DNA from: Chrysochromulina tobinii
Lineage: Eukaryota
Direction: 5' to 3'
Length of the DNA: 57,418 nucleotides
Assembly (NCBI GenBank): GCA_001275005.1
Contig: JWZX01002380.1
Coordinates: forward strand, 1-57,418
Positions within the stretch are counted from its first letter, which is position 1. Each line of letters starts with the position of its first letter. Positions 3,630 to 54,029 of the stretch are shown here, piece after piece. The notes under the pieces were generated by a model. That model ran no database searches. It had not been told where the DNA came from and saw nothing but the letters and a program-made list of their open reading frames with translations. The position numbers and the translations under genes were made by a program.

Positions 3630-3775
3630 CAGCTCACTTCCAGCGCTCCGATGCCGGCTGAGTGCACCTCTGACTGTGCCTGATTGCAGCTCACTTCCAG
3701 CGCTCCGATGCCGGCTGAGTGCACCTCTGATTGCGCCTGATTGCAGCTCACTTCCAGCGCTCCGATGCCGCCTGA
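3630..3775. repeat. 57-bp tandem repeat (about 2.5 copies) duplicating the stop-codon region of the minus-strand ART-like gene, with GCAATCAG/GCACTCAG filler
   Basis: CAGCTCACTTCCAGCGCTCCGATGCCG starts at 3630, 3687 and 3744; the third copy contains the real stop (ASERWK*). Confidence 0.9.
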
Positions 3776-6700
3776 GTGGCGGCCGCCTGGCCGCGCTGGA
3801 TCAGATACTCCTTGAGCAGAGAGGAGTTGGCCGGGGTGCTGGGTAGCGGCGGGGCGCCCCCCTCCCGCGCCTCCCTCGATCTGGAGAGCTCCGTGGGGGC
3901 GCCGAGCTGGGCGCCGCCCTGGATCACGAGGGTGTGTGCATCGGGCGGGGGCCCAAAGGACGGGTGCGTCGCAGGCTGTCCACTCAGCTCGGCGGCCTTT
4001 CGGAACGGGTTGCCCCTGTGCACCCGCCCAGTGAACGCATGCCCTCCGGTGCCATTCGTGCCATTCGTGCCCGAGCGCGCCCCACCCGTCCCACCCGCCA
4101 CACCCGCCGCACCCGCCGTACTCGGACGGACGCGAGCTGGAGCCGTGCTGGGCGCCGAGCGGCTCAGGGGACGGCTCAGAGGTTCGACACTCAGCAGCTC
4201 GCCGAGATTGGCATCGAGATTCGTGTCGAGATTCTCGTCGCTCAGCAGCATGCCGCCGACGCCGCCGGCCGCGGTCGGTGCGCCAACCGGCGTGCAACCA
4301 CGCGCCGTCGTGAGCGCATACGAGCCCGCGGTCGAGCGTTGTCTTGGGCGCGGCAACGGCTCGTCGGGATGGTGGCGGCGGCGTGGGGCCGTCGCGGCCG
4401 TCGCCCAACATGGCGCGGGTACCTCGGCCGGCGGCGGCTCTGGAGGCGGGTAGAGGGCTTGCTGCGAATACGCTTGCTGCTTGTACGCTTGCTGCGCGTA
4501 ATACGTCTGCACGGCTGGCGAGGAGAGCGCCTGCTGCGAGTCAGGGTACATCAGGTGCTGTCCGTGGTACATCGGGTGCAGTCCGGGGTGCGTTGGCTGC
4601 GGCGGTGAGCAGCCGGCGTACCCCTGCGCGTCGCCCAACACAGCGCGCGCGTGCGCCTCAGCCTCTGGCGACGTGTGCTCGTCGGTCCAGTGAGGCTGCG
4701 CTGTGTTGGGCGCGTGGCTGAGCGAGGGCATGGGCGAAGGCGTGGGCAGCGCTGTGTTGGGCAACGGCTGCGCTCCGGCGACGCCGAGCTCATCGGCAGA
4801 TGGCATCTCCCGCGATCTCGCGTGCTCCAACGGCCGATCGTACCGCGGTCGAGCGCCGTCCCGAGCGCCGTCCCTGCCGAGCGAGGCGCCGTACCGAGCA
4901 CCACCCCCGCCCACGACGGTCGAGCGCTCCGGCTCGGCAGGGTCGGCGCTCGTTACGGCGCCCACGCTCGGTACGGCGCTCAGCCCGCCGATGCGTAGGC
5001 AGGCGCACGCGTGCCTCGCCGCCTCGACGGCCTCATGCAGGGCCTCGTTCTCGCTCTGCAGCCGCTCGAGCCGCTTCTCATCCTCCTCGGCCAGCCGACC
5101 GCTCCCCTCCGCATCGGCCGGGTGGACGCCGTCCCGAGCATCAGCGCCGTCCCGAGCACCAGCGCCGTCCCGAGCGTGTAGCACGATCGCTGCGCCGGCG
5201 CTGACCGACTCGCTGTGCACGAGCGTCCTCTCAGACAAGGCCATCGCCTCCTCCGCCGTCGCCATGGCCTTCGACGCCGTCGCCATCGCGTCGCCGGCGC
5301 CCGCCTCCCCCTGTGGAAACGGCGCCTCCCCCTGTGGAAACGGCCACGGACGCACTGCGTCAGCCTCCGCGGCGGCAGCGAGCCCGGCCCGCACCGCCGC
5401 GGCCGCCTCCATTTTGGCACGCACGCTCGAGCCCGCGCTGTGAAGCATCTTGTTCACACGCTCCATGGCCTGGGCCTTGGTCCGGTGCCTGAGGAGCTCG
5501 CCTGTCTGCGACGAGAGCTTGTCGCGTCAGATGCAATCCAGTGGCAATCAGATGTAATCAAGGGGCCATCAGTGGCCCTCACCTGCTTCGATAGCTTGTC
5601 GCGCAGCTCGTTGCGCTCGCGCTCGAGGGCAGCGTTCTTAGCCGCCAAGGCCGCGAGGCCATCGCTCAGCCCTCGCATCTCGCCCATCGCGAGATCGCGC
5701 CGGCGCTCGTATGCGGCGGCCTCGCGCCGCCACGGGCGCCCCGCCTCCTTGGCCCAGCTGGTGCTCACGCCGAGCACAATCACGAGCACCTGCTTCATCC
5801 GATGCAATCCAGTGGCAATCAGATTTAATCCAGTGGCAATCCGATGCAATCAAGTGGCCGAGCACAATCACGAGCACCTGCTTCAAGAGCGTTCATCAGA
5901 TGCAATCCAGTGGCAATCAGATGCAATCATGTGGCCATCAGATGCAATCAAGTGGACGAGCACCTCGCCAGCGTCCATCGCGGGGAAGCTGCTGCCACCG
6001 CCGGCGCCGTCCTGGGCGCTCTCGACGCTGGTCAGGTAGGTGCGCCTGAGGTCGAGCGCGCACACGGGTGGGAAGACCGCATCGGCGCGGCTCTCGTACT
6101 GCGACAACCACGAGATGTCGGCCGCCCGGTCGACGGCGCTTTGCTCGAGCTGCAGCACGGTCTGCGCGCCCGCGACGACGCTCGCAAAGCTCATCGCATG
6201 CTGCCGACTGCTGGTGCAGGCAAGCACGCCCCACTCGACGCCCGCGACGGCGCCCGCCAACGCGGCACCTCCGCTGCCGCTGCTCGTCAACGGGGCGGCG
6301 GTGGCGCCGCCGCTCACCGGCAAGGGCGTCGTGCCGGGCGTGACGAGGGGATGGGACGGTGCCGCGCTGTGTTGGGCGGCGCCTGGCGTCGGCAGGCCAG
6401 CGGCAGGCGGCGCGCGGTACAAGGGTGTCGAGGCCTCCGCGATGCGCCCGAGTTTGCCCAGGCACGCCGCGAGCGTGTGCAGCGTCGCCGGGTACGCGTT
6501 CGCGCGGTTGGTGACCTCAAACGCGCGCGCGAGCTCAGCGGCCGCGCGGCCGAAGCGCGCGGCCGCATACTCGCCCAAGACGGCGCGTCGCTCGTCGGCG
6601 GGCAGCTTGGCGAGGCGCGCCGTGCCGAGCGCGCGCAGCGCCACGTTGTACTTGGCCTGCAGATGCAATCAGATGCAGTCAGGTGCAGTCAGATGCAGTC

Positions 6701-8865
6701 AGATGCAATCAGATGCAATCAGCTGCAGTCAGATGCAGTCAGCTGCACTCAGAGGCACTCAGAGGCACTCAGATGCACTCAGAGGCACTCAGCTGCATTC
6801 AGATGCAATCATCTGCACTCAGCTGCACTCAGCTGCACTCAGACGCAAAAAGCTGCACTCAGAGGCAATCAGCTGCACTCAGTGGCACCTCGCCGCACGG
6901 TCCTGTGAAGAGGCGCGCCGCTGTGAACTCTGCGTCGCTCAGGTTGGACTCGCCGAGTTTTCGTAACCGCACGCCCACGCGCTTGCGCCCCGCGACGAAG
7001 CGCTCAGCACGGCGCGCGAGCGGTTCGCGCGGGAGCCACGCGCCCTTGGGGGCGTGCCCCGTCGCCTGATGAGGGAGGTCATCAGTGGTCATCAGAGGTC
7101 ATCAGGGGTCATCATCATCATTGGGGGCGTGCCCCGTCGCCTGATCGATGGTGGCGGTGGTCATCAGTGGTCATCAGTGGTCATCAGTGGTCATCAGTGG
7201 TCATCAGTGGTCATCAGTGGCCATCAGTGGTCATCAGTGGTCATCAGTGGCCATCAGTGGTCCTCAGTGGTCATCAGTGGTCATCAGTGGTCATCAGTGG
7301 CCACACGCCTGATCAATGGTGGCGATGGGTCGGTACGTCTCCGTCGGCCAAGCTCCCGGCATCAGGCCCAGGCGCTCGCGCGCCGTGTCGAGCGCCTCGC
7401 GGTCCGCCTCCGTCGCGCCTCCGTCGATGCCCCCCTCCATGGTCGGGTCCACCACGAACCACCACTCCACACACGAGGTCGTGTGCACGCCATACGTGCC
7501 CGCGAACACGAGATGCGCATCTGGCCCGCTCGTGTGTTCATGCCGCATCGCCTCGAGGGTCAATACGCCTTCCTCGAGGCCTCCTACGAGCCCGTGGAGC
7601 CCGCTGAAAAAGTCCGACGGCCCACCGAGCACTGAGGCACGCCCGAGGCGCTCGAAGCTCTCCGCCTCAAACTCGCGCGCTGGAACGAAGCGCTTGCGGG
7701 GGCGCGCGCGCGTCAGATGGGACTGTGGAGGCGCCGTGCCGGGCTCGGCCGTTGAGCCGCTGACCTCTTCGGCCACAGACTGCTGTGAAGGCTGCTGTGA
7801 AGGCTGGTGTGAAGGCTGCTGTGAAGACGGCTCCGAGATCGGCTCCGTGGGCTCCTCAGCCGACGAGGCCTCGGCCGCCCCGGCGCCCGGCACGGCGCCC
7901 GGCACGGCGCCCGGCACGGCGCCCGGCACGGCGCGTTGGCGCGCCGCTCGTTCCGCCAGAGCGTGTGCGCGCGCCTCGGCCTGCCCATGCAGCAGCTGGG
8001 CGCGTGCCACCACGCGCTGCGCCACCAGCCCGAGCAGGTCGTCGCCTGCGCCTCCCTCGGTGAGCATGCTCTTGACGAGCGCGCGCGCCGTGCTGAGCGC
8101 CCCCTCGTGCGCGAGCGCGCCGCCGCCGCTTGCGAGCGCGCCGCCGCCGCTTGCGAGCGCGCCGCTGCCGCTTGCGAGCGCGCCGAGTTCTCTCACGAAC
8201 TCCCTCTCGAGCGCACACAGCTGCGCCTCGGCCTTGGCAGGCGCCGGATCGAGCGCGAGGCGCTTCGAGCTGCGCTGGAGATACCGGCGCACGCTCAGCC
8301 GATCGCGAAGCAGCGCGGTGAGCTCGAGGCCCTCCAGCCAAGCACCGAGCTGCCACCGCGCCGGCGAAGCGGCGGCGACCTCGAGCGCAGTCTCGCCAAC
8401 GTAGTCCGACACGGCTCGGAGCTCCGCCTCGGCCGCGGCCGTCGCCCGGCTGACGGCGGCGGTCAGAGACGCCTCCAGTGCCTCCGAGCGCGCTCCGCGG
8501 CCGAGCTCGGCGCGCAGCCGCGCCACCTCTGCGTCGCGCTCGCGCAGCTTCTCCTCGCTCGCGTGCAGCCTGTCCTTGGTCTCGCGCATCTGCCTAGAGA
8601 GCAGCGACTTATCGGAGCGCGCCAGAATCTCCGACAGCTGCTCCTCTTCGACTTCCGGCCTCTTTGGCTTGGCAGCGGGCGCGGCCTGCTGCGGCGCCGC
8701 CTGCGCCGAGCGCAGCTTGATGCGAAGCGACGCATTCTCCGCCTTTATGCTAAGCATCTCCGACAGAGATGTCTTGAGGCTGCTATTCTCCTCGACGAGT
8801 CGCTGGTAAGCCATGTGCAGGCGCTGCAGCTCGTTGACCAGCTCGGTGGCAGTGTCGAGTGACAT
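3748..8865 (-). CDS. About 1463-aa protein: N-terminal coiled coil, degenerate ARTC-type (R-S-E) mono-ADP-ribosyltransferase-like domain, coiled coil and disordered C-terminus
   Basis: Exons 8865-7309, 7065-6889, 6656-5964, 5789-5583, 5505-3748 (all phase 0, frame closes). Motifs FFSGLHGLVG..EAMRHEH..YGVHTTSCVEWWFV, RLFTGP..KYNVALR..NAYPATLH..LYRA..GVEWGVLACTS..DRAADISWLSQY match algal ART-family proteins as I recall them. Confidence 0.75.
5506..5582 (-). other. 77-nt GT-AG intron with CTGATTGC array; acceptor supplied by a copy of the upstream exon end
   Basis: The exon ends GCGACAAGCTATCGAAGCAG|GT and the intron ends GCGACAAGCTCTCGTCGCAG|ACA. Confidence 0.8.
5790..5963 (-). other. 174-nt GT-AG array intron with a 10-nt flanking duplication (AGGTGCTCGT) and an internal copy of acceptor plus exon start
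   Basis: GAG|GTGCTCGT ... CAG|GTGCTCGT; internal copy at about 5857-5886. Confidence 0.8.
6657..6888 (-). other. 232-nt GT-AG intron made almost entirely of 10-mers (CTGAGTGCAG/CTGATTGCAT/CTGACTGCAT)
   Basis: Splicing joins FTGPCGE|AKYNVALR in frame. Confidence 0.85.
7066..7308 (-). other. 243-nt GC-AG array intron containing a copy of its own spliced junction
   Basis: (ACTGATGACC)n arrays flank CGCCACCATCGATCAG-GCGACGGGGCACGCCCCCAA at 7121-7156. Confidence 0.8.
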
Positions 8866-9046: not shown

Positions 9047-10180
9047 ATGAGCCGGACTCTGGAGGCTCAGGCAGAGCACGCGCCCCGTGCAAGGTGGCCG
9101 ACCCCCCCAAGTGGAGAGTACGTTCATGATGTGGCATACGACTACTACGGCCAGCGGGTGGCGACGTGTTCTTCCGATAACACGATAAAGATCTTCAACG
9201 AGCACGGTCGCAAGGTTGCCGAGTGGAGAGCGCATGGTGGCTCCATCTGGCGACTCTCGTGGATGCATCCCGAGTTCGGGGTGGCGCTGGCCTCCTGCTC
9301 CTTTGACCGCAAGGTGTGCGTCTGGGAGGACGTGGCCGATGCCGAAGAGGCAGCTGCGCAGCTCGACAGTGCAGCCGGCCGCGTGGCGTGGACACGCACC
9401 GCCGAGCTCGCCGATGCGCGCGACTCGGTGGTGGATGTGCAGTTTGCGCCACACCACCTTGGCGTGCGCCTCGCCTCTTGCAGCATGGACGGATTTGTGC
9501 GCATCCACGAGGCGGCCGACGTGCTCGACTTGTCCACGTGGGAACGGCACTCGGACTTCCATGCGGCGGCCGACACAGCCGCCTCCAAGGAGGGCGCGGG
9601 CGGCGCCGAGGCTGGAGGCGAGGGCGGCTACGCAGGCACCAGTCCTCTTTGCCTGTCTTGGTGCCCTTCGATCGTTGAGAACGAGCCGATGCTCGTGGTC
9701 GGCCTCTCCGACGGCTCTGCAAGGCTCTGGCGAGGCCACGAGAGCAGCTGGTCCTGCGTGCTCAGCCTGGGCCTCGGCGGCGCCCGCTGCCACGCCGACT
9801 GCGTGCGCTCGGTGAGCTGGGCCATGGATGCGGGCCGCTCGTACCAGCTCGTCGCCACAGCGTCGCGCGACCAGACGGTAAAGCTGTGGGCTTTGCGACG
9901 CACATCGGTGGCCGAGGAAGACGATGCCGCGGGCGCTGGGCCCGAGGGCGGCGGAGGCGCTGGCGCCGGTGGCGCCGTTAACCCCCCTGCGGATGCCCTC
10001 GGCGACGGATGGAGCGCAAGGTGCTGCGCCGAGCTGCCGCATCGTTCGCAGGTCTGGCGTGTCTCTTGGAACGCAACCGGATCGATGCTCGCTACGTCGG
10101 AAGATGATGGCACTGTGACCGTCTACCAAATGGACGCAACCGGCGGTTGGCGCTTCGCCAGGCCTGTGGCCTGCCAGTGA
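9047..10180 (+). CDS. SEH1: Nucleoporin/GATOR2 WD40 protein SEH1
   Basis: HDVAYDYYGQRVATCSSD, WMHPEFG..LASCSFDR, DVQFAPHHLG, GRSYQLVATA, VWRVSWNATG; intronless. Confidence 0.9.
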   Translation: MSRTLEAQAEHAPRARWPTPPSGEYVHDVAYDYYGQRVATCSSDNTIKIFNEHGRKVAEWRAHGGSIWRLSWMHPEFGVALASCSFDRKVCVWEDVADAEEAAAQLDSAAGRVAWTRTAELADARDSVVDVQFAPHHLGVRLASCSMDGFVRIHEAADVLDLSTWERHSDFHAAADTAASKEGAGGAEAGGEGGYAGTSPLCLSWCPSIVENEPMLVVGLSDGSARLWRGHESSWSCVLSLGLGGARCHADCVRSVSWAMDAGRSYQLVATASRDQTVKLWALRRTSVAEEDDAAGAGPEGGGGAGAGGAVNPPADALGDGWSARCCAELPHRSQVWRVSWNATGSMLATSEDDGTVTVYQMDATGGWRFARPVACQ

Positions 10181-10266
10181 AGAGCCATTAGTGCCATCAG
10201 TGCCATCAGTGCCATCAGTGCCATCAGTGCCATTAGTGCCAGGCCTGTGGCCTGCCAGTGAAGAGC
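10157..10266. repeat. 29-bp direct duplication spanning the SEH1 stop, flanking a (GTGCCATCA)n 9-mer array
   Basis: GCCAGGCCTGTGGCCTGCCAGTGAAGAGC at 10157-10185 and 10238-10266. Confidence 0.95.
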
Positions 10267-22401: not shown

Positions 22402-24400
22402 CTACCCAGGATCGATTCGCGCAATGTACTCGGTCGTAGAAGGCCCGTTCCTTGTAGTGTAAGTCAAGTCGGGCGAGCGCTCCTTGGCGCGTTCGATGCG
22501 CCAGCGCATCAAGCTGCCGATACAATGGCCGATGGCACCGATCGAGAGTACGACGACGAAGGCGACCGTGTTCTCCCATGAGGAGTAGAGATTCGTCAAA
22601 AGAGCGCTGACGGCAAAGCAGAACGGCAGCAAGCAGTAGCAGACGGCGGTCTGCACGCCGCCCGGCAGCTGGAAGGGACGCTCGACGTTCGGGCGCTGTA
22701 CTCGCAGCGCGATGAAAGAGTACAGGAAGAGGCAGTGCGAGCATGCGAACAGCATCATCTCCACCTCGACGAGCGCCTCGAGGTGAAACTGATGAGGGAG
22801 GCAATCATGGGTCATCAGTGATCATCAGAGGTCATCAGAGCGCCTCAAGGTGCACCTGATGAGGGAGGCAATCCATCGCACTCAATGGCACTCGTTCATT
22901 CAATCGCAACGTGAGTCGCACAGCTGAGCGAAACAAGGAGCTATGCAGGAGCTATGCGTGGCCATCCGTGGCGATCTCCGGCACTCGAGATCAGCTCGGG
23001 ATGATCTCCGGCACTCGAGATCAGCTCGGGATGCACCTGGGTCAGGCAGCCCGCAATCGTCGCGTTGAAGAGTACGTTGGCGCGCGACATGCCGCCGCCC
23101 TCTGGCTCGGTCTTCAGCCAGAGGGTGAGCGAAGCCAAGCAGCGTCGGTGCAGCATCGGGGTCTGCGCGGCCTCCAGCGGGGGCTCATTCATGCGGGGGG
23201 TGAGCCTCGACGGCGGCGGGGCCTCTCGATTCAACGGCAGCAGGCACGTGAACCCAAGGTCACTCAAGTACGCGTGAACAAAGGCGCCGCACGAGCGCTC
23301 CGCCGCGATGACCTGCGAGTGGTACAGGCCGACCTGCGCCATGTTCGCGCCAACCACGAAGAGCGTCTTGAGCCACAGGCCGGAGAGCTGACCAGCGAGG
23401 GTTCCAAAGTAGCCCGCGTCGTAATGCTCAGTGTCGGGGTCGAGAGAGAGCGCGACGGCAAAGGGCATCACGTTGAGCGCGATGACGAGCGGCAGCAGGA
23501 ATGCGACGACGGCTGGGTAGGTGTACTTGGGATTTTCGACTTCACCCGCCATCGATCCGAGCGTCGAGAAGCCCGAGTAGAGCCACTGGAGTTCAACAAG
23601 GTGCCACAATGAGTCAGAGGGACAAGAGCACTCAGAGGCCCTCAGAAGCACTCAGAGGCACCCAGAAGCATTCAGAAGCAATCGTACCAGCGCCCACGAG
23701 ATGAGGAGAGCCCAGTCAGCATGCAATCAGCATGCAATCAGCATGCAATCAGCATGCAATCAGCATGCAATCGTACCAGCGCCCACGAGATGAGGAGAGC
23801 CCAGTCAGTCTCGCCTTCCGTCGAGGTGAGCACCTCGGGCTCGAGCCGACCGAGACCGATGACGATGAAGATGAGGCTCGGGGTGAGAGAGAGGAAGAAG
23901 ACGACGCTCTGCGAGGCCGTCACCCAGTCGAGGCCCATGCAGTTGGTCACCGCCACGCAGACGACCATGGCCAAGCAGATCCCCTGCTCGCTGCCCAGCC
24001 CCAGTTGGAGTGCCTTGCTCACGTACTTAGCGGCGATCTGCGGGTACACCGCCGCGTCGAGCAGGTTGGTGAACCACACCCAAAAGCAGTTGTGGCCGCC
24101 GATGCGCGGCCCGCACGCCTCGGCCGTCCACACGACCTGACCGCCGTCCACCGGGAAGGCGGTGGCAAGCTCGGCCGTCATGAGTGCGTTCGGGAGCGCG
24201 AAGCAGAGTCCAGCGAGCACCGTCCAGAGGAAGACGATCAGCGGCGGCCCCGACGAGACCATCGTCTCATTGCCGTACAGGCCGCCCGAGACCCAGAAGA
24301 AGCCGATGACCACGAGCGTGCACACGCCCACTCGCTTTTTTGCCTCGCTCTCCGATGTCGGTAACAAAACCTGCCGCTCGCCGCCAGGCGCGGGCATCAT
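22402..24400 (-). CDS. APC-superfamily polyamine/amino-acid permease (PUT/RMV1-like), about 519 aa
   Basis: FFWVSGGLYGNE, ALMTAELATAFPVDGGQVVW, NLLDAAVYP, WLYSGF..AGEVENPKYTYP. Exons 24400-23777, 23585-23037, 22788-22402 (phase 0, frame closes). The true start may lie further upstream. Confidence 0.88.
22789..23036 (-). other. 248-nt intron with arrays and an internal duplicate of acceptor plus exon start
   Basis: Internal GATTGCCTCCCTCATCAG-GTGCACCTTGAGGCGCTC versus terminal GATTGCCTCCCTCATCAG-TTTCACCTCGAGGCGCTC. Confidence 0.75.
23586..23776 (-). other. 191-nt array intron with an exact 42-bp internal duplicate of exon end plus donor
   Basis: 23678-23719 equals 23767-23808; splicing gives ISWAL|WLYSGF. 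Confidence 0.85.
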
Positions 24401-32061: not shown

Positions 32062-35000
32062 TCAGCAGAAGAGGTCGACCCGGACGCCGGCGGCATGGCT
32101 GCCACGTGGCCGCGCCGAGTCGAGCGCCGAGCAGCCGGCAGCGGGCTCGTTCACGGCAGCCACGTCGCTGTGAACCCAGCATTCGTAACGGCCATCGCGC
32201 GACCGCACCAGCCGACACGCGCTGCCGCGGGCGCCCAGCCGACACGCGCTGCCGCGGGCGCCGTCGCCGGCCGTTTCGAACGCACCCGCCGTTCCCAACT
32301 CGAGCGCCGTTCCGAGCAGCGGCGGGTGCAGCGGGCAGAGCACGTGGTCAAAGAGGAACTTGTACAAGAGCGTACGCACACGGTCGGTGCCGTACCGGAC
32401 GGAGCCCAACGGCCGCACCTAATGAGGGAGGTCATCAGAGGTCGTCAGAGGTCATCAGAGGTCGTCAGAGGTCATCAGAGGTCATCAGAGGTCATCAGAG
32501 GTCATCAAAGGTCATCAGAGGTCGGAGCCCAACGGCCGCACGTTGGTCAGGTGCTCACGCCGCCACGCGATGCTCTCGCTGACGGCGAGACCGTGCACGT
32601 CCATGCCGCCGACAGTACTGCCGCTGCCGCCAGCAGCGCCCGCCACAGCGCCCGAATACACGTGGCCTCCGCTCGCCACAGCGCCCGAATACACGTGGCC
32701 TCCGCTCCATGAGCTTACAAGCAGCCCGAGGAGCATCGGGCGGGCGGCGGGCGGCGCGGGCAGCAGCAGCGAGCGAGCCTCCTCCATCCGCGCGCGTAGC
32801 TGTGCATCGTGCGCGAGGTCGAGGAGGAGCACCTGATGAGGGAGGTCATCAGAGGCTCATCAGAGGTCATCAGAGGTCATCAGAGGTCATCAGAGGTCAT
32901 CAGAGGCTCATCAGAGGTCATCAGAGGTCATCAGAGGTCATCAGAGGTCATCAGAGGTCATCAGAGGTCATCAGAGGTCATCAGAGGTCGAGGAGTAGCA
33001 CCTCGGGCAACGAGTCGGCTGGTGCGGCTCGCAGCTCGTCGAGGAGTGCCAAAGGGCGTGCGTACCTGATGAGGATGGTCATCAGAGGTCATCAGAGGTC
33101 ATCAGAGGTCATCAGAGGTCATCAAGGAGCGCCAGAGGACGCGCGCACATGCATGCAGGCGTGGCCGCCACGACGTCGTAGAAGGTGCCGTCGGCGGGCA
33201 GGGGTGTGAACGGATAGGTGCTCGAGAGGACGCCCAGGTGATGAAAGCGCCACACGAGCGCGCCGAAGACTTTGATAGGCTCAGCAGCAGCCAATGGTAG
33301 TGGACGGCCAATGGAAGTGGACGGCCGATGGCAGTGGAGCGCCGTCGTGGGCGCCGGGGGCAGTGGACGGCCGATGGCTGTGGTGCTGGCGGACGCGAGC
33401 GACGAGGCGCTCACGACGGCGCTCGCGACGGCGCTCGTCGGCGCGCGCAGCTCGACGTGCATGCGCAGCATGCCGGCACGGCGCGGCACGAACTCGAAGG
33501 TGAGGTGGAGCGCCGTCGTGGGCGCCGGGTCGCGCGCCGTGTCGAGCGTCGCCAGGGAGTGCAGCAGCGCTTCGCCCTCGTCGACACCATCGTAGCGGCA
33601 GCACACCTGCATGCAATCAGCACGCAATCAATATGCAATCAGAACGCAATCAGCATTCACTCAGCATGCAATCAGTATGCAATCAGAATGCAATCATACT
33701 GCAATCAGCATGCAATCAGCACCCTCGTAGCGGCAGCATACCGCCGCGCGTGCAAAGGCCTCCGCACGCTCTCGTGCGGCGCCCGTGACGACGCCCAACT
33801 CAACGCCAGGACCGCTCCTGAGCCGCAGCTTGAGGTGGGCGTCGAGGCGCGCCGTCTCACCCTCGATAGCGCAGCGCAGCCTGATGGACAAGATCTCGAG
33901 GGCGGATACCTCAAAGTCAAACGCGGCTCCGCCCTCGAGATCTCCGCCCTTTGCGATCTCCGCACTCGAGATCTCAAAGTCAGACGCGGCTCCGCCCTCG
34001 GACAGCAGCGCCACGTCGCCGGGCGTGCGAGGATGCGACGAAACCCTCTGCTGGAGAGCGCCGTACTGATCGCCCTGAGCGTCGTAATGAGCGCCATGAG
34101 CGCCGTGAGCGTCGTCCTGAGCGCCCACCGCAACGCCATCGGGCTCCGTCCCCTTGAGCTCGACGCCCGTGGTGCTGCTCAATACGGCGCCCGGCGCTCC
34201 CAAATCGAGCACACGCACCTTGAGAGGCGTGCCTGCAATGAGGGAGCAATCAGCATGCAATCAGGGAGGCAATCAGCATACAATCAGGGAGGCAATCAGC
34301 ATGCAATCAGGGAGGCAATCAGCCTGCAATCAGGGAGGAAATCAGCATGCAAAGGCGTGCCTGCAATGCGATCGGTTCCGTTGAGGAGGACGGTGAGGTA
34401 ATGCAGGCCGGCGGTCTGCAGGTAGCCTTCACAGATGTAGACGCCCGCCTCGGCGCTCGGCGTGGTGGAGATGCGAGTGCCCGAGATAATACCCGAGGTG
34501 TTGCCCGAGGTAATGCCCGAAGTGGTGCTCGAAGGGCCGCTCACCTGCATCGGGGCAAGGCAACAACCCGCGGTCATCAGGGGCCATCGGGCGAAATTAG
34601 TAGCACTCCTAATGAGGCCATCATGAGCACACTCAGAGGCCATCCGCTCACCTGCACCTCAAGGCGGTCCTGCGCCGCGGGCCGTGCGTTACCGTACGTG
34701 TCGCACACGGCCACGGAGAAACGCAGCGCCGTGCCGAGCGCATGCGGCGCCGTGAGCAGCGGCCCGGCGGCTCGGACCTGATGAGGATGGTCATTAGAGG
34801 TCATCAAAGGTCATCAGAAGTCATCAGAGGTCATCAGAGGTCATCAGAGGTCATCAGAGGTCATCAGCGGCCCTGCGGCTCGGACCTTGCATGCAATGAG
34901 GGAGGCAATCAGCATGCAATGAGGGAGGCAATCAGCATGCAATGAGCAGCGGCCCGGCGGCTCGGACCTTGCATGCGGAGGCGGCGGCGGCGGCGGGCAA

Positions 35001-40879: not shown

Positions 40880-43051
40880 ATGGGCAGTAGTAGCAGCACG
40901 CCGAGTACTCCGGCAAAGGTGCTCCCGAGCCCACGGCAGTCGCTTCCGAGTCCACGGCTGGCTCCACCTCCGAGTCCAAGGCGGGCTCCACTACCGTCCG
41001 AAAGCAGCAGCAGCAGCAAGGCTGGAGCGCCGCCGCCGACGACGACTCCGCGGCTGGCCCCGCAGGAACTGCTCCTGCGGCTCGAGGGGCCAAAACTCGA
41101 GGCCCCACTCGAGCGGCTCTCCATTGCCGAGCTCCGTATCTTCATCGAGGTGGCCGAGCTCCCTATGCCGGAGGGCAAGCTCGAAAAGGCCGACTTGGTG
41201 ACTCGCGCGAGGTGTCTCGGACCGCTAAATGGCCTGCGGCCAGCGCAGCTCAAGCGGCTGATTGAGGCGACGGCGCACGAGCACTCCGGCTGCGTCGAGA
41301 AGGCCGAGCTGATCGCGTGCCTGCTCGCGGCCATCGAGGCCGGAGGCAAGGCGACGCGGGAGCGGCCCGTGACGGACGAGCACGGACTCGAGCCCGGCAA
41401 GAGTAACTTTCGTCTGGCGGCGCAGGAATGGAGCGAGCGCGAGCGCGAGCTGGCCGACGAGATGGCCGCGCGCGCGCGCACGGCGGCCGAGCGCTACCGT
41501 ACCGAAGAGACGCTCAAGGCGCGCGCGATGCTCGCAGCTGCCGAGGTGGAAGAGCAAAAGGAGGCCGAGGAGCGCGAGGCGGCGGCGGCGGAGAGGCGCT
41601 GGCTGCAGGAGCGCAAGGTGCTGCTGCAAGTGGAGGCAGCTAACCAACAGGTCAAGCTGCTCGAGAAGCGCCTCGCCCTCTAATGACCTCTAATGACCTC
41701 TAATGACCTCTGATGACGCCCTTGATTGCCTCCCTCATCAGGTCAAGCTGCTCGAGAAGCGCCTCGCCCTCGAGCATGAGCAGCAGAAGCGTCAGGCCGC
41801 CGAGCGCGATCATCTCGAGGCGAAGCTTCGAGAGGCGACCCAGGCTACTGTGAGGGCGCATGCCTCGGAGGCAGCCCACGCGGCCGAGTCGCAGATTACG
41901 CGCCTGCAGCTCGAGGACAACCAGCGCCAGATGGAGCAGCTGCAGGTGTGGATCCGGCGCTCCAAGGAGGGCCGCCTGATGACCTCTGATGACCTCTGAT
42001 GACCTCTGATGACGCCCTTGATTGCCTCCCTCATCAGGCCGAGCTGCACACGCTCCAGAAGCAGCATGAGCTCGAGAAGGAGATCTTGATCTCCTCCGCC
42101 AAGATTGCCGAGCAGCAGCAGCAGCAGGAGCAGGAGCAGCAGCAGGAGCAGGAGGAGCGGCTGCGCAGGAATGCGCCCTCGGAGCCGCCGCCGACGCCGC
42201 CCGCGTCGAAGCAGCAGCACCTGCTTCAGCTCCTGGCGGCGGGCCCTGCGCGTCCGAGGGCGGCTTCTCGTGACTCGGTGGCTTCCACTGCGGCGGCGAC
42301 CCCCGTGGCCACCAGCGCGGGGCCGTCAAAGTACTACAGCGACGAAGAGGAGGCGATGATGGCCTTGTACGCCGAGGCGGACCAGGCCGATCCGGAACGG
42401 GTGGATGAGGACGAGGCCGAGGCATTTGCGTCCCATCGACGTGCCATTGACGCCCTGGCCGCTGCGGCGACGCCTGCGCTCGATGCCCTGGCCGCATCCG
42501 CACCGAGGGGGCTGACAGGGGGGGGCGACACAGGGGGGGGCGACACAGGGGGGGTCGTGTCGCCCTCGTCTCGTGTGCAAGCACTGCTCAGCGAAACAGC
42601 CCCCGAGGGTACCTGGTCCGCCGTGCCGCACGCCCAGCAGCCGCCCAGCACGGCGCCGCTTGGCCTCGCCCAACTCGGCGCCCGGCCCAACACGACGCTC
42701 GGGGTGAGCCGGGGCTCGATGGACAGCGGCGCGCTCCTGAATCGAGGCGCCCAACACGGTGCCCAGCACGGCGCCGGGGGCGAGCCGCTGCCGAATACGA
42801 AGCAGCGCGTCGAGGCCGCGCTCGAAGCGCTCTACCGTAAGAACGGGGGTGAGGCGCCTGGGCTCCTGCTGCAGCAAGTTCGCATCCCGAACTCGCGCAT
42901 CCAACGGTTCCCCCGTCCAGGTGAGCCGCTCAGTACGGCGCTCAGCCCTCCGGACGCGGCGCTGCCGGTGACGTCGACTCTCTTGAGGGGCCTTGCCGCG
43001 TGGCCCTCGCCGTCGCCGGCCTCGCGGATGCCCTTGCCGGCCGAGCTATGA
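40880..43051 (+). CDS. About 662-aa coiled-coil protein with two SAP/HeH-like motifs
   Basis: LSIAELRIFI...LEKADLV and LRPAQLKRLI...GCVEKAELI; exons 40880-41650, 41742-41945, 42038-43051 (phase 0). Confidence 0.7.
41651..41741 (+). other. 91-nt intron: perfect 33-bp flanking duplication, (TAATGACCTC)n array and shared 3' terminus
   Basis: CAGGTCAAGCTGCTCGAGAAGCGCCTCGCCCTC at 41648-41680 and 41739-41771. Confidence 0.9.
41946..42037 (+). other. 92-nt array intron whose last 39 nt are identical to those of the preceding intron
   Basis: 41999-42037 equals 41703-41741. Confidence 0.85.
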
Positions 43052-44036: not shown

Positions 44037-46719
44037 CTACTCGCCGCGCGACCCTCGCGGTGTGCCTGAGCTCGTTGAGGAAGGCGACGCTCCGCCTAAC
44101 GCTCCGCCGGCGGCCTCGTCGTCAGGCCAAAGTAGCCATGCGACGAGGATGGTGACGTTGTCCATCGAGCCGCTGTCCATCGCCTTGCGCATGAGCGCGC
44201 GCGCCGCCGCGAGCGCGCTGCCGTGGCCGTCGACGTCCCCTCCGGGGGGAGGGGGATGCACTACGCCGCGCCCTCGCGCCGCGGTGCATGCAATCTGGAC
44301 AGCCTGCGAGTCATCGACCACATCCCACAGCCCATCGCTGGCCATGATGAGGAGCCGATCGTGCGGTGAGAGTTCGTGTGAGAGGACCTCGGGCTCGTGC
44401 GACACGAGGGGCACGCTTGTGCACCTCTTGAGCTCCCGGTTACCTGATGAGAGGGGCAATCAGACGTCATCAGAGCGAGGAGGGAGGCAATCAGACGTCA
44501 TCACGGTGGCCCTCTTGAGCTCCCGGTCACCGAAGGCGCGGCTGATGGCAAGCATGGTCGACGTGCAATCAAGGGCGTCATCAGAGGTCATCAGAGGTCA
44601 TCACCGAAGGCGCGGCTGATGGCAAGCATGGTCGACGTGCCCGGTGGACCGGTGACCCGCCAGCAGCCGTTAATCGAGCGAACAAAGCCGCCCGACGCGC
44701 GCACGCGCTCCGCCTCCTTGGGCAGGTCTGGCTTATGGTCGACGCTCAGCCGATGCGCTTCAAGCTCACGCTCACGCATCGAGCGGCCCGAGTTGCCGCT
44801 GAAGCGCGCGTGCGGCGCCGCCGGTTTGCGTCCGAGCACCGCGCGCGTGTCGCCGCAGTTGGCGACATCGAGGGTCGTCCCGCGCAGCAGGGCGCAGAGC
44901 ACGGTCGTGCCGTCCGTGAGCACCTTGCGTGTCGCGAGCTCGAGGAAGTCGGTGTCGACCTGTTTAACGCAGATGCACTCAGAAGCACTCAGAAGCACTC
45001 AGAAGCACTCGGATGCACTCAGAAGCACGCAGATGCACTCGGATGCACTCAGAAGCACGCAGATGCACTCGGATGCACTCAGATGCACTCAGGGCTCATC
45101 AGAGGGTCCTGCTCGACCTGTTTGAACGCCAACGTGAAGGCGCGAGAGACCGCCTCCGCCGGCACGGCCGCAAGGTCCAAAGTGGGTGGCGCTGTGGTGG
45201 GCACGGCCGCAAGGTCCAAAGTGGGTGGCGCTGTGGTGGGCGCGGGGCCCTCCGACGTGTCTGGAGGCGGCGGGAGCGCGGCAGGCGGCAGAGCGGCAGG
45301 CGGCGGGAGCGCGGCAGGCGGCGGAGCGGCAGGCGGCGGCGGAGCGGCAGGCGGCGACGCGACATGTGGCGCTGTGGTGGGCGCCAGAGAGCGGTATGTG
45401 AGCGCGGGCGCGTCGTCATCCAGCGAGCCCCGAAGCTCAGCGACCACTGCGGCTTCGGCCGCTGCCTCCGCCGTCGCCTCCGCCGCCGCCGCCTCATGCG
45501 TCAGCATGCATGTGCTCAAAACGGCGCCTCGACCACGGCGCGCATCGAAAGCGTCATCCAGCCATGCCGGAGCGTCGTGGTGAGCGTCATGGTCGAAGGC
45601 AGTGATCTCGTCCGCCTCGGGTGCAGCGCCAGGGCCTGCTGCGGCTCCTGCTGCGGCTCCTGCTGCTGCTGCGGCTCCTGCTGCGGCTGCGGCTGCGGCT
45701 GCGGCTGCGGCTGCGGCTCCTGCTGCGGCTGCTGCGGCGGCGGCGGCGGCGGCTTCTGCTGGTGGTGGTTCCGCTGCTGCTGCTTCTGTTGGCGCCGCCG
45801 CCGCTGCTGGCGCCGTTGCCGCCGCTGCCTGCTGCTGCTGCCGCTTCTTGCGCTCGCCTTTGCGCTCTTTCCACGCCTGCCAGGCGCCCTCGCCGTCAGT
45901 CGACTCGGGCTCCGTCTCGGTCACGTCATCCTCTGCCTCGACGGCACCACTGCCGCGCCGAGCCGCACTCGCACGGCGCGCATCGAAAGCGCCCTCCAGC
46001 CATGCCGGAGCGCGGCCACTCGCGGCCAAACCCGAAGGCTCACTCTCCATTTGAGACGGCGGCGCCGACGATCGCGGCGCCGACGACCGCGGCTCGCCCT
46101 GGGTGCGGCTCCACCAGCAACCAGGGCGCGTAGCAACCAGGTGCTGCTGGTGGAGCAGCTCGGCGGCAAGTGCAGCCACCAGGCGCCGCGGCAGCTGTGC
46201 CTTCGCGAAGTCGCAGCAGTTGATGCCGCCGTGCCCGTCGAGCACGCTCAGGTACGAGGCACCCTCAAGGCCAGCGTGCAGCTCGCCCAGGTTGGCGACG
46301 ACATCGTGCCGGTCCTCCATGTACGGCCGCCTGCCTTGAGCTTCGACGACAGCCCACGCGAGGCGCGGGCCCGCCGAAGCGTCGGCGGCGGCGCCAGGCG
46401 TGGAGGGCAGTGGTCCAGCAGCAGCTGCAGCGGCGGCGGGCGCGGAGGCCTGGGGCTCGCTCGAGGGAGCGGGTGCGTCACCCGACGGGGAGCAGCGCAG
46501 AAGCTTACGCGCACGCATCTGGCTGGAGCTCCCCGCCGGCGTGGGGCCGGCATGATCGAATCGAGCCGCTGTCACGTCAGCCAGTGAACGTGCGGGCTGC
46601 TCAGCGCCAGTCTCCTCAAGCTCCTCGGCAAAGGAGAGCAACAAGCCGGCTTTGCGCGCCTTGAGCTTGGGCCTGGTGACAGCTGGTGCCGTTGTGGCGC
46701 CAGCCATGCTCGCTTCCAT
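44037..46719 (-). CDS. PP2C/PPM-family Ser/Thr phosphatase with a large low-complexity insertion (about 787 aa)
   Basis: QGRRPYMED, DGHGG, GTT, VANCGDTRAVL, LSVDHKP, LAISRAFG, IMASDGLWDV, GSMDNVTI; exons 46719-45118, 44959-44605, 44443-44037. Confidence 0.92.
44444..44604 (-). other. 161-nt array intron containing a 56-nt copy of its spliced junction
   Basis: 44511-44566 joins the upstream exon end to the downstream exon start. Confidence 0.85.
44960..45117 (-). other. 158-nt (CTGAGTGCAT/CTGAGTGCTT)n intron with flanking duplication
   Basis: GCGTTCAAACAG|GTCGA ... GCGTTAAACAG|GTCGA. Confidence 0.85.
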
Positions 46720-50567: not shown

Positions 50568-53500
50568 ATGTTGCCGAAGCTCACGTCACCCCGGCCTTCG
50601 GCGGTCGGCACAGGCGATGGCGAGCAACCCGTCCTCGCCGAGTGGAAGGCTGCAGTCAACGAGGAGGCCGCGATGCGCAAACGCATTGCCAAGCTGCAGC
50701 GGGAGCTGCAGCGCAAGAAGCAGCAGCAGTCGGCCTCGGAGCTGCAGCGCCAGCGAGACACCACGGCCTCTATTTTGCGCGAAGAGCTCAACGAAGCGCG
50801 CGGTTCCAGAATGATGCACCTTATTGCTGACGTGCTGCCAGCTTCAGAGGACGAGCTCAATCAGCTCTCGAAGCTCATCAACACAAAGTGCTTGCCCTCG
50901 GGGCCCGGCGGTAAGAACGTCTCCTGGTACGCATGCTTCAAGAACCTCGACACGGATCATTCGGGTTCGATCAACTTCAAAGAGTACGTAGCTCTCATCC
51001 GGACGAGCAGGGGCCTCAACATCCCTCCTGAGACGCTGAGCGACATGAAGCTCAAGAGCATCTGGAAGGCGGTGGACGAGGACAACAGTGGGCTCATCTC
51101 GGTGGGAGAGTTTGGACACTTCATGCGCCGTGGCGAGTCAGCCGCCGCTGAGACGGCGCATGAGCGCCTGGTCGCTGCACGGCTGGAGGTGCAGCGACGG
51201 CAGCATGTCGAGAACAAAGTGCGGCGTGACGCGTCGGGCCGCGACATCAGTGCGCTGCTGGATGCCTCGGAGCCGGCCACGGAGGAAGAGCTGCAGGAGC
51301 ACTCGCACCTCTTCAACCGGTACCTGTTCCATAACCTCGGTGAGACCAACGGCGGAGCTTGGTATAAGGTGTTCAAGGCCGTCGACACAAACCTATCCGG
51401 CCTCATTTCCTTCAGCGAGTATGAGGTCGCCGTGCGTGATCCTGTGATCGGCTGCGGCTGCACAGTGAACGAGGTGAGCGACGCCAAGCTTCGGAGGCTG
51501 TGGAAGGCGCTCGACGCAAACGGCAACGGCACCATTGACGCGGGTGAGTGGGGGCGGTTCATGAAGCGCGGCCAGCCCGCCGAAGGATCTTCACCCCGTG
51601 CGAGAATCCTTGCACGCAAGCTCGAGAAGCAGCAGGAGAAGCTTGAGGAACTGCGGCAGGCAAGTGACCTCCGTTATCGGCATCTCGCAGCGCCTGTTGA
51701 TTTTGAGGGTATCCAGCCAGCGAGTGCCGCGGACCTGGGCGCGATGTCGCGCCAATTCACTGAGAGGCTTGCACATCTCTATCGAAACTCGACGCCGGCC
51801 ACGGAGTGGTATCGGCTCTTCAAACTTGAAGCGGAGCAGCACCTTCACCATGTTGGCGGCACAAAGGTCCCCACGGCACAGGCAACGTGTCTCCGCATTG
51901 GCTTCGAGGAATTGTGCCGGATCGTACGTATCGGGATGCAGTTCGACAGGGATCAGTTGAGCGACAAGAAGATCAAGCGTCTGTGGAAGGCGCTCGATGA
52001 ACCCGGTGCAGGCTTTGTGGAGGTGGGAATCTTCGGGCGATTCATGCGCTTCGGGATCGGCCCCGGCATGATGCCAGAGGGCAACACCTCCGAGCTGGAT
52101 GCCACGCGCAAAACATCTCGAACCCATCAACAACGAGTTGCAGAGGTGCGCGAGGCGAAGCTCGCCGCTGTTCTAAAGGAGTCGACAGAGCGGCTCAAGG
52201 CTTCAGCTCTCCAAGCCCAAGATTCTGCAGCCGCGGCGGCGCTCGAGATGAAGCGGCTTGAGGAGGAGCTTGCCTCGGTTGCCGCCGTAGAACTGTACAG
52301 CCGCAACGAGGCGCAACTCTCGGGTCGCCTTCATGAAGAGCTCATCGACTTCGGGTATGCGCTCTCGCAAACGGACCTCGACGAGCTGCGGCGCTTGGCG
52401 GCGGAGGAGCGTGCCGTTGAAACGCGCCTGAATCGGGCGGTCAAGGGGCGACGGGGCCGCCCGGTCAAGGGTGAACGCGTGAAGATGAACTTGAAACTGA
52501 AGAAGCCGGATGAAGCTGATCCGGTCCAAGACAGCAACCTGTCGAGCTCGACAGGTAAAACCCCAGCGCCCGATGCAGAGCCTGTGGGCATATCAGCCAC
52601 GGCGCCACGAGAGCAAAGTCATGTGACATCAGCGTCACCGTCTATGAGCCCGCGTCCGCCGTCCTCGCCGCGGAATCCGGCCGCTAGGCGCCCCTCAGAG
52701 AGAAGCCCTCAGAGAGGACTCGATCCACACGGCGTGAAGGTTCCGCTCAGCCCGAGCACGTCGCCGAAGCGCATCCAGGGAGTAGCACCTGAAGAGGTGC
52801 TTGAAGAGGCAGCAGGATCCATAGTGGCGCCGGCACCGGGTGAGGCTGCAGTACTTCTGACAACAATGCCGCTGCCGCCGATGTCGCCAGCGCTTGATGA
52901 GGTGCCAGAGGAGGCCACGTCTGCGCCAGCTCATATTGTCGAAGACGAGGCGCAGGAGGTGGCCGACGAGGATGCTTCGTCAGAAGCCTCCAGCAAGAAG
53001 CTCTCCGCCACGCCGCTCAGGCTCGACGGCGACGGCACCATCCCCTCGCAGATGCGCCGTGCACTGCAAACAAGCTTGTCTCGCGTCATCGACCTGTTTC
53101 GCCAGTTTGACGACGATGCGAGCGGGTACATAGATGGGCCCGAGTTCGTCAAGGCGCTGGCCGAGCTCGGCTTCGATCCCGACGAGCCGTCAGTCAGCGC
53201 GCTCTTCGCCTCCTTTGACCTGGACGACAGCGGCACGATCGAGTACGAGGAGCTGCACAATCTCCTCGTGCGCTCGGTGCAGCACAAGCCGGAGCTGGAG
53301 CCACTGGAACTCAAGGCGGCTAATCGCATCGCGCTGCGCAAGAAGCGCATGAGCAAGGTCGACGCCAACCTGTTCAGCGGGCTCGAGCTCGGCAGCCTTG
53401 ACGCCGACGCGATCCCGGGCGCCATTCGGAAGGCGCTCGACGAGAGGATGGTGCGCGTGATCGACCTGTTCCGTCAGTTTGACGACGACTCGTCGGGGCT

Positions 53501-54029
53501 GCTGGACGCGTCCGAGTTTGCGAAGGCGATGCGCGAGCTCGGAATGACGGACGCACCGCCGGAGGCGATCGCCGCCGTCTTCGCCTCCTTCGACCACGAC
53601 GAGAGCGGCACGATCGAGTACCGCGAGCTGCACGCGATCATCAAGCGCTCGTTGCAGGATCGACCCGTGGTGCCGCTGCTGGGGCTCCAAACGGCCAACC
53701 GCATCACGCTGAGAACCAAGAGAGTGCTCAAGGCGAACGCCAACCTTCTGGAGGGTCTGGACCTCGATGAAGCCGCGCTGCACTCGATCCCCGGTCAGAT
53801 CAAGGGCGCCATGCAGGCGTCGCTGGTGCGTGTGGTCGACCTATTCCGCCAGTTTGACGATGATGGGGACGGCCGTATCAGCTTCGACGAGTTTGGCAAG
53901 GCGATGGGCGAGCTCGGTCTGGACGTGCTGCCCCAGGCGCTTCGGCTCCTCTTCGATGAGTGGGACCCAGATAAGAGCGGCTACATTGAGTACGAGGAGC
54001 TGTACACCCTGCTGCGGCATGCCAAATGA
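50568..54029 (+). CDS. Large intronless multi-EF-hand Ca2+-binding protein (about 10 canonical loops)
   Basis: DTDHSGSINFKE, DEDNSGLISVGE, DTNLSGLISFSE, DANGNGTIDAGE, DDDASGYIDGPE, DLDDSGTIEYEE, DDDSSGLLDASE, DHDESGTIEYRE, DDDGDGRISFDE, DPDKSGYIEYEE. Confidence 0.9.
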   Translation: MLPKLTSPRPSAVGTGDGEQPVLAEWKAAVNEEAAMRKRIAKLQRELQRKKQQQSASELQRQRDTTASILREELNEARGSRMMHLIADVLPASEDELNQLSKLINTKCLPSGPGGKNVSWYACFKNLDTDHSGSINFKEYVALIRTSRGLNIPPETLSDMKLKSIWKAVDEDNSGLISVGEFGHFMRRGESAAAETAHERLVAARLEVQRRQHVENKVRRDASGRDISALLDASEPATEEELQEHSHLFNRYLFHNLGETNGGAWYKVFKAVDTNLSGLISFSEYEVAVRDPVIGCGCTVNEVSDAKLRRLWKALDANGNGTIDAGEWGRFMKRGQPAEGSSPRARILARKLEKQQEKLEELRQASDLRYRHLAAPVDFEGIQPASAADLGAMSRQFTERLAHLYRNSTPATEWYRLFKLEAEQHLHHVGGTKVPTAQATCLRIGFEELCRIVRIGMQFDRDQLSDKKIKRLWKALDEPGAGFVEVGIFGRFMRFGIGPGMMPEGNTSELDATRKTSRTHQQRVAEVREAKLAAVLKESTERLKASALQAQDSAAAAALEMKRLEEELASVAAVELYSRNEAQLSGRLHEELIDFGYALSQTDLDELRRLAAEERAVETRLNRAVKGRRGRPVKGERVKMNLKLKKPDEADPVQDSNLSSSTGKTPAPDAEPVGISATAPREQSHVTSASPSMSPRPPSSPRNPAARRPSERSPQRGLDPHGVKVPLSPSTSPKRIQGVAPEEVLEEAAGSIVAPAPGEAAVLLTTMPLPPMSPALDEVPEEATSAPAHIVEDEAQEVADEDASSEASSKKLSATPLRLDGDGTIPSQMRRALQTSLSRVIDLFRQFDDDASGYIDGPEFVKALAELGFDPDEPSVSALFASFDLDDSGTIEYEELHNLLVRSVQHKPELEPLELKAANRIALRKKRMSKVDANLFSGLELGSLDADAIPGAIRKALDERMVRVIDLFRQFDDDSSGLLDASEFAKAMRELGMTDAPPEAIAAVFASFDHDESGTIEYRELHAIIKRSLQDRPVVPLLGLQTANRITLRTKRVLKANANLLEGLDLDEAALHSIPGQIKGAMQASLVRVVDLFRQFDDDGDGRISFDEFGKAMGELGLDVLPQALRLLFDEWDPDKSGYIEYEELYTLLRHAK

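What the first reader, a model, noticed from the sequence alone, without database searches (positions are those of the whole stretch)
44444..44604. PP2C intron stores a 56-nt copy of its own spliced junction that keeps the conserved SRAFGD Asp, while the predicted mRNA has Asn
Seen: 44511-44566 (minus strand) reads GCACGTCGACCATGCTTGCCATCAGCCGCGCCTTCG-GTGACCGGGAGCTCAAGAGG (STMLAISRAFGDRELKR). This is the upstream exon end joined to the downstream exon start, sitting between two arrays. The only GT/GC-AG splice I can find gives TTC G|GT AAC, i.e. SRAFGN. Known: SRAxGD is a highly conserved PP2C motif. Inference: the inner block is the ancestral uninterrupted sequence, fossilised by two successive duplicating insertions or copied from mRNA/cDNA. 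Non-canonical splicing that retains it is also possible.
Basis: partly seen in the sequence, partly recalled or inferred. Interest (0 to 1): 0.8.

Follow-up and report, generated by a model that had tools for sequence, protein, structure and literature searches.

The report
Twice-hit intron mimics spliced junction
In an algal phosphatase gene an intron holds what looks like a copy of its own spliced junction, likely because two repeat insertions each duplicated the coding sequence on one side; other strains appear to carry only the first insertion, and the 'preserved' aspartate codon is probably a late change in this strain, not a fossil.

Summary
The 56-nt block is real: 36 nt exactly copy the upstream exon end, 20 nt copy the downstream exon start with one mismatch. 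RNA contigs of 2 of 2 runs laid fit only the ordinary GT-AG splice, giving Asn. The headline reading fails. A second strain (L004) has the same layout with the Asn codon in the inner copy and a different first array. Read-through gene calls show alleles lacking the first array, also with Asn (2 of 16 proteins, 30 contigs). Asn also stands in 5 of 16 close homologues. Best reading: insertion 1 duplicated the downstream exon start and made the intron; insertion 2 duplicated the upstream exon end and buried the old donor; the G is probably derived. Two more introns in this window hold such junction copies (one RNA-confirmed). It resembles the 'staggered-then-staggered' introns of Daphnia, with longer duplications (10-42 nt) and an abundant repeat family as filler. 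The scan already noted this intron family elsewhere in this genome (e1-2577349); the nested form and its intermediate alleles are the addition. Organism: a Chrysochromulina haptophyte.

The parts
45118..46719 (-). PP2C exon 1 (start codon inferred; carries the MEDRH and LDGHGG motifs, then a long low-complexity insert)
   Evidence: homologues P0001, P0002 share both motifs
44960..45117 (-). Intron 1, GT-AG, 158 nt, repeat array between copies of the junction (11 nt exact here; 18 nt exact in L004)
   Evidence: spliced in one contig of RNA run X13; absent in L005
44605..44959 (-). PP2C exon 2 (PF00481 positions 96-174)
   Evidence: 3 of 355 nt differ in L004
44444..44604 (-). Intron 2, GT-AG, 161 nt, the finding
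   Evidence: absent in L005 and L006
44567..44604 (-). Outer donor and array 1 (younger insertion; no acceptor tail; 39 nt identical to the intron array at 41987-42025)
   Evidence: different array in L004; missing in P0222 and P0236
44531..44566 (-). Inner copy of the upstream exon end, 36 nt (29 nt in L004): target duplication of the younger insertion
44511..44530 (-). Inner copy of the downstream exon start, 20 nt, G at 44528: target duplication of the older insertion, and the old 5' splice site
   Evidence: L004, P0222, P0236 have the Asn codon here
44444..44510 (-). Array 2 (older insertion) with the acceptor tail; 1 nt differs in L004
44037..44443 (-). PP2C exon 3 to the stop codon (PF00481 positions 185-255; SDGLWD and DNVT motifs)
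   Evidence: 4 of 407 nt differ in L004
41987..42025 (+). Sibling array identical to array 1 over 39 nt, followed by a full acceptor tail
34778..34967 (-). Second intron of the same nested build; 30-nt junction copy (9 + 21 nt, 1 mismatch) at 34894-34865
   Evidence: spliced in RNA runs X13 and X15
7066..7308 (-). Third nested intron (predicted GC-AG); 36-nt junction copy (16 + 20 nt, 1 mismatch) at 7156-7121
   Evidence: splicing not tested

Best explanation
The block is an ordinary GT-AG intron's internal scar, likely left by two successive repeat-array insertions that each duplicated their target, and the spliced RNA contigs encode Asn. Step 1 (inferred; intermediate alleles seen): an array with an acceptor tail entered an intronless exon and duplicated the next 20 nt; the first copy begins with GT and became the donor. 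Step 2 (inferred): a second array, cut short before its acceptor tail, entered 2-4 nt inside that donor and duplicated the last 29-36 nt of the upstream exon; the outer GT took over and the old donor was buried, so 'exon end + copy of next exon start' now reads like the spliced junction. Step 3 (inferred, about 80%): the Asp-to-Asn change predates step 1, and the inner G of this strain is a later intronic change, by point mutation or by conversion from the outer donor that lies in register. The insertions most likely arise by repair synthesis that copies a sibling array and joins at short microhomologies (about 55%; a mobile-element enzyme is the main rival).
For: RNA: a 57-nt contig laid 44558-44511 with one other letter in 2 of 2 RNA runs (depth 9 and 7) is reproduced exactly by genomic + canonical splice, and X14's 142-nt contig would break into 46 + 130 if the Asp form were present. 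Order: array 2 carries the acceptor and is shared with L004 (1 difference), array 1 has none and differs wholly. Intermediate: of 16 read-through proteins seen, 2 (P0222, 2 contigs; P0236, 28 contigs) run from the motif straight into the Asn copy and array 2; 6 end as the window does, 8 as L004 does. Intronless Asp state in L005 and L006. Intronic copies mutate in this strain: the 18-nt repeat of intron 1 is perfect in L004 and has 2 changes here. Generality: 6 of 9 RNA-confirmed introns listed at 32.8-37.1 kb have exact junction repeats of 7-27 nt; two more nested junction copies. Microhomology at the 5' join: mean 2.8 nt against 1.1 for simulated blunt joins, P = 5e-5, 14 of 24 duplications scorable.
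Against: Parsimony alone ties the two polarities of the G/A site (two changes each); my preference rests on timing and on 3 allele types against 1. L004's outer donor matches the Asp version of the copy for 6 nt, which fits an older G but also fits the array unit. The array-1-less alleles are known only as gene calls on short-read contigs and could be collapsed repeats (P0236 has its own junction, which argues against simple collapse of L004 or the window). The 57-nt contig cannot tell the outer from the inner donor. The microhomology set was hand-picked, 10 of 24 were unscorable, one (22873) is doubtful, the 3' figure (3.1 against 1.1) is inflated by shared splice signals, and later array slippage can mimic microhomology. 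Contigs drop rare RNA forms.
Confidence: 0.72

Rival explanations
1. Same two insertions, but the inner G is a true fossil: the exon still encoded Asp when array 2 entered, the exon then changed to Asn, and other alleles converted their intronic copy to match.
For: Asp is ancestral at depth (P0001, P0002, L005, L006). L004's outer donor matches the Asp version for 6 nt, and a G gives longer microhomology with the array unit in both strains.
Against: Three allele types, two of them without array 1, have Asn in the copy. It squeezes the amino-acid change into the short time since the insertion (copies otherwise identical; exons of the two strains differ at 7 of 762 nt) rather than the long branch to P0001 (about 77% nt identity).
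Confidence: 0.15
2. The insertions are made by a mobile element's own enzyme (an introner; for example an HUH or retro-type element that leaves variable-length duplications), not by host repair.
Against: No constant ends or length: inserts of 31-149 nt, duplications of 10-42 nt, ends cut at microhomologies; array 1 lacks the family's acceptor tail in both strains. No enzyme was looked for (no genome held).
Confidence: 0.3
3. The 56 nt were pasted in one event from mRNA or cDNA of this gene.
For: The block is colinear with the spliced junction; in L004 it matches the mRNA exactly.
Against: Alleles hold the downstream half without the upstream half; the upstream half has different edges in two strains (36 and 29 nt); single-sided duplications are common in the window; here the block mismatches the mRNA.
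Confidence: 0.04
4. Non-canonical splicing keeps the inner block and yields the Asp protein.
For: A GA-AC cut would give the motif with Asp; unspliced inner-block sequence is present in RNA runs at depth about 4.
Against: No joint from the inner block to the downstream exon, and unbroken 142/144-nt contigs, in 2 of 2 runs; L004 could not make Asp from its inner block.
Confidence: 0.02
5. Assembly artefact joining two alleles.
For: All data are short-read contigs; the 40-nt repeat breaks 31-mer contigs.
Against: Single-copy depth in DNA runs, bridging contigs, identical L001-L003 and the same layout in the diverged L004.
Confidence: 0.02

Closest known systems
Daphnia pulex new introns, category 6 'staggered-then-staggered' (PMC4202315; passages and section 19 read)
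   Same: New intron flanked by a direct repeat of adjacent exon, a second insertion with its own direct repeat inside, allele variation within populations, different inserts at one site.
   Different: Daphnia repeats are 4-17 nt (4-12 nt for intron-exon repeats) and the filler is AT-rich; here 10-42 nt, the filler is one abundant array family with a ready acceptor, and the second duplication spans the splice site and replaces the donor.
Introners that take the 5' splice site from the target duplication (10.1101/2022.06.06.494994; 10.1101/2020.10.14.339549; passages read)
   Same: Insert carries the 3' splice site, GT comes from the duplicated target, mRNA length unchanged.
   Different: Those classes have set duplication lengths (3-8 nt in the passages read). 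The Chrysochromulina sp. family shown there has a 4-bp duplication and carries its 5' site, the opposite arrangement. 'Nested' and 'tandem' had 0 hits in both texts.
[quoted passage not shown]
   Same: Exon sequence duplicated into a new intron; a 10-nt exon copy at an intron end in potato.
   Different: No AGGT is duplicated at this intron; the acceptor comes from foreign array sequence.
Replitron-1 of Chlamydomonas reinhardtii (PMC10288648; passages read)
   Same: Orientation-specific insertion, variable-length target duplications, ragged ends.
   Different: Defined 0.9-3.6 kb elements with terminal direct repeats and a Rep transposase; none shown here.
PP2C / PPM phosphatases (Pfam PF00481)
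   Same: Both coding exons pass the curated cut-off; DGH, GD, DG and DN aspartate motifs present.
   Different: Asn in the SRAxG(D) motif, as in 5 of 16 close homologues; long low-complexity insert in exon 1.

Membership tests
PP2C phosphatase (PF00481) | Profile match above the curated cut-off | tested here: met
   69.6 and 55.4 bits against cut-off 20.3
PP2C phosphatase (PF00481) | Metal-binding aspartate motifs kept | tested here: met
   MEDRH, LDGHGG, NCGD, SDGLWD, DNVT in the 787-aa spliced frame. PMC5390078 (passages) names D38, D60, D146, D239, D243 as metal sites and has 0 hits for D199; mapping those numbers to motifs is recalled.
PP2C phosphatase (PF00481) | Phosphatase activity of the Asn form | not testable with these tools
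   needs an assay
Staggered-then-staggered new intron (Daphnia type) | Direct repeat of adjacent exon at an intron end | tested here: met
   20-nt copy begins the intron in array-1-less alleles
Staggered-then-staggered new intron (Daphnia type) | Second insertion with its own direct repeat | tested here: met
   array 1 with 36-nt (window) or 29-nt (L004) exon copy
Staggered-then-staggered new intron (Daphnia type) | Intron absent in relatives | tested here: met
   L005 and L006 continuous across the site; they may be transcripts, which would void this row
Staggered-then-staggered new intron (Daphnia type) | Short repeats, 4-17 nt | tested here: not met
   10-42 nt in 22 duplications with an insert
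Introner (transposon-made intron) | Family of similar introns at unrelated sites | tested here: met
   39-nt identity with 41987-42025; shared units and tails across the window
Introner (transposon-made intron) | Set duplication length and constant ends | tested here: not met
   variable duplication and insert lengths
Introner (transposon-made intron) | Terminal inverted repeats | not tested
   no inverted-repeat search was run
Introner (transposon-made intron) | Autonomous partner or transposase | not testable with these tools
   no genome held
Tandem genomic duplication (Rogers model) | Duplicated AGGT supplies both splice sites | tested here: not met
   upstream exon ends in CG; acceptor lies in array 2. 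It may hold for the older half of 34967-34778.
Twintron / recursive splicing | Inner piece removed as its own intron | tested here: inconclusive
   array 1 has no acceptor at the buried donor and no such joint was listed; contigs drop rare forms

The most novel reading that the evidence does not exclude
Chrysochromulina has an active, undescribed intron generator that is neither a classical transposon nor random repair: branch-point-like arrays are copied from other introns, always in sense, onto breaks at existing 5' splice sites, so that one donor has been hit twice independently within one population (window and L004 types). 3 of 3 upstream-duplicating second insertions end 2-4 nt inside the old donor. 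An RNA (lariat) template or a splicing-linked break is not excluded.
Probability: 0.2. Interest if true: 0.75.

Novelty: new variant of a known kind. Interest (0 to 1): 0.42.

Why it matters
Intron gain is rarely caught in steps. Here one site shows four states: no intron (relatives), one insertion, and two different second insertions, in strains whose exons differ by about 1%. That makes this alga a place to test repair against transposon models of intron gain, and shows that a splice donor can be replaced by duplication without changing the mRNA. It is also a caution: an intron that contains its own spliced junction needs no cDNA, and a 'restored' conserved codon in such a copy need not be old. 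Practically, these exon copies mislead gene models (P0285 stops at this intron).

Tried and rejected
No whole genome is held, so the genome-wide search for junction copies could not be run. Array-tail pattern in viral contigs: 0 matches. Junction pattern in prokaryote genomes: 3 matches, all short chance hits without the gene. Downstream exon in viral contigs: 1 locus at 30% identity, no DNA likeness. The metagenome scan gave 6 loci, 3 identical to the window. Cluster look-up for the 7308-7066 intron failed: protein not in the collection. For 34967-34778, 12 of 13 read-through proteins keep the outer array and one is cut short, so no outer-array-less allele was seen there, as expected if the order was reversed. 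My junction test for 7309-7066 used a donor one base off and returned nothing; the copy is read. X13 lacks array-1 contigs among the pieces shown; I do not count this as evidence, since depth is about 4 and the table was cut. Summed depth over the arrays is not a copy number. Recursive splicing at the AG-GT of the acceptor was considered and gives a frameshift (by hand). Paper searches listed no description of these arrays or of junction-copy introns in Chrysochromulina; supplements were not read, and the introner tables of 10.1101/2022.06.06.494994 and PMC12130899 may list related families.

Full report
Observation. The minus strand reads: exon end (44640-44605), donor and array 1 (44604-44567), exact 36-nt copy of the exon end (44566-44531), 20-nt copy of the next exon start with G at 44528 (44530-44511), array 2 with the acceptor (44510-44444), next exon with A at 44441. 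Chance is negligible. Both exons match Pfam PP2C, and the three-exon frame is open for 787 residues with the DGH, GD, DG and DN motifs. Named members of the clusters of two window proteins are Chrysochromulina tobinii and C. parva, so the organism is a Chrysochromulina haptophyte.

Is it real DNA? In two DNA runs the contig over the block has the depth of the flanks and no joint skips it; RNA contigs of X14 bridge exon, array 1 and block. Three further assemblies are identical over 6354 nt and a diverged strain, L004, has the same layout. The DNA runs and L001-L003 are probably the same strain and are weak as independent support; L004 is the independent witness.

What is spliced? Only one GT/GC-AG cut among 13 single-intron candidates keeps the motif, and it gives Asn. 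I laid 2 of the 6 RNA runs found on this stretch. Each holds a 57-nt contig laid at 44558-44511 over its first 48 letters with one other letter (depth 9 and 7). A 31-mer simulation gives exactly that record for genomic plus canonical splice, and not for genomic alone or genomic plus the Asp form; the Asp form would also split the 142-nt contig of X14 into 46 and 130 nt. So the mRNA seen has Asn. Limits: the record fits the outer and the buried donor alike, the piece table was cut, and contigs drop rare forms. Protein P0253 runs through the junction with Asn (transcript or intronless allele).

Is Asn odd? Among 16 close homologues 11 have Asp and 5 Asn; among 103 distant PP2Cs 98 have Asp, 4 gave no motif and 1 gave a spurious first match. 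On a tree of 22 rows the Asn tips are scattered among Asp tips, with modest support at several forks; the nearest rows, P0001 and P0002, have Asp. Asn is therefore derived in this lineage but recurrent in the subfamily. The residue is not among the metal sites named in PMC5390078 (passages; motif mapping recalled).

Alleles give the history. L004 differs at 7 of 762 nt in exons 2 and 3. It shares array 2 (1 difference), has the Asn codon in the inner copy, a 29-nt rather than 36-nt upstream copy, and a different array 1. The window's array 1 is identical over 39 nt to an intron array at 41987-42025 and stops before the acceptor tail; L004's matches another subfamily (22 nt, 35795) and also stops before the tail, at 4 shared letters by script and 6 by eye. 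Gene callers that read from exon 2 into the intron show more: of 16 proteins seen (15 listed from a cluster of 42, plus P0223), 6 end as the window does (36 contigs), 8 as L004 does (29 contigs), and 2 run straight into the Asn copy and array 2 (30 contigs). One allele can be counted twice under different start calls, and collapse of the repeat in assembly could mimic the last class, though P0236 has its own junction. L005 and L006 (81% and 75% protein identity) are continuous at both intron sites, with Asp; they may be transcripts.

Mechanism. Array 2 must have come first, because array 1 has no acceptor. Its 20-nt duplication began with GT and gave the donor. Array 1 then entered just inside that donor and duplicated the exon end, so the outer GT took over. 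The old exon-intron boundary, now buried, reads as the spliced junction only because the old intron began with a copy of the next exon. The G is most likely late: three allele types have A, the copies are otherwise perfect (young), the branch to Asp-bearing relatives is long, and this strain has also changed two letters in the repeat of intron 1 that L004 keeps perfect. Parsimony alone is tied, and L004's outer donor fits an older G, so I leave about 15% for the fossil.

Generality. Of 9 RNA-confirmed introns listed at 32.8-37.1 kb (4 runs; 18 joint rows not shown), 6 have exact junction repeats of 7-27 nt. Intron 34967-34778 is spliced in two runs and holds a 30-nt junction copy between two arrays; there the outer array looks older (12 of 13 read-through proteins keep it). 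A predicted intron at 7308-7066 holds a 36-nt junction copy. In 24 hand-picked duplications (23 window, 1 L004), the 22 with an insert are 10-42 nt long; 14 were scorable per side, with mean microhomology 2.8 nt (5' join) and 3.1 nt (3' join) against 1.1 for simulated blunt joins; the 3' value is inflated by shared splice signals. Array units lie mainly in sense in 11 of 11 RNA-supported introns. This favours repair synthesis templated on sibling arrays over a fixed-cut transposase, but does not exclude an element with ragged ends.

Comparison. The closest described case is the staggered-then-staggered class of new Daphnia introns (PMC4202315, passages and section 19). Introners that take the donor from the duplication are known (passages), with short set lengths; the Chrysochromulina family shown there is arranged the other way. 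PMC12130899 had 0 hits for Chrysochromulina or haptophyte (passages). Replitron-1 leaves variable duplications (passages). The Rogers model needs AGGT, absent at this intron (passages). The C. tobin genome paper mentions introns once, without these arrays in the passages shown. Searches listed nothing on junction-copy introns in this group; supplements were not read.

Verdict. Real feature, sound splice prediction, but the Asp-fossil story is probably wrong. What remains is a clear, staged example of compound intron growth with natural intermediates: a new variant of a known kind, interest 0.42.

Noticed in passing
window 44037-46719 (-): A public gene model in the same cluster (P0285, 183 aa) reads into intron 2 and stops there, so it lacks exon 3 with the DG and DN motifs.
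   Followed up: partly
window 5963-5792 (-): Two arrays with an inner copy of an old acceptor plus exon start (29 nt); read-through protein P0274 appears to lack the second array, another possible single-insertion allele.
   Followed up: partly
window 3630-3778 (+): A 57-nt unit made of apparent exon sequence plus array units is repeated 2.6 times.
   Followed up: no
window 23678-23808 and 10157-10266 (-): Arrays flanked by exact 42-nt and 29-nt duplications; splicing not tested.
   Followed up: no
window 44960-45117 and 44444-44604, proteins P0222-P0241: Variants at the end of intron 1 occur in all four combinations with the two array-1 types of intron 2, 360 nt away; recombination between strains or chimeric metagenome contigs.
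   Followed up: no
window 33607-33741 (-): Intronic copy of the next exon has A at +3 where the exon has G, the reverse of the finding; a change towards a stronger donor.
   Followed up: no
arrays throughout the window: The 10-11 nt units each hold CTGAT or CTGAG, which resembles the branch-point consensus (consensus recalled); the arrays may be tandem branch points.
   Followed up: no
window 34233-34360 (-): RNA-confirmed GC-AG intron with a 16-nt exact repeat spanning both splice sites.
   Followed up: partly
window 45534-45574 and 45972-46012 (-): A 41-nt, 95% identical repeat within exon 1 of the phosphatase, in the low-complexity insert.
   Followed up: no
window 1194-2264 (+) and 53082-53917 (+): Coding tandem repeats: 30-33 nt units in one gene, and three EF-hand-like units about 375 nt apart in a 1153-aa ORF.
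   Followed up: no
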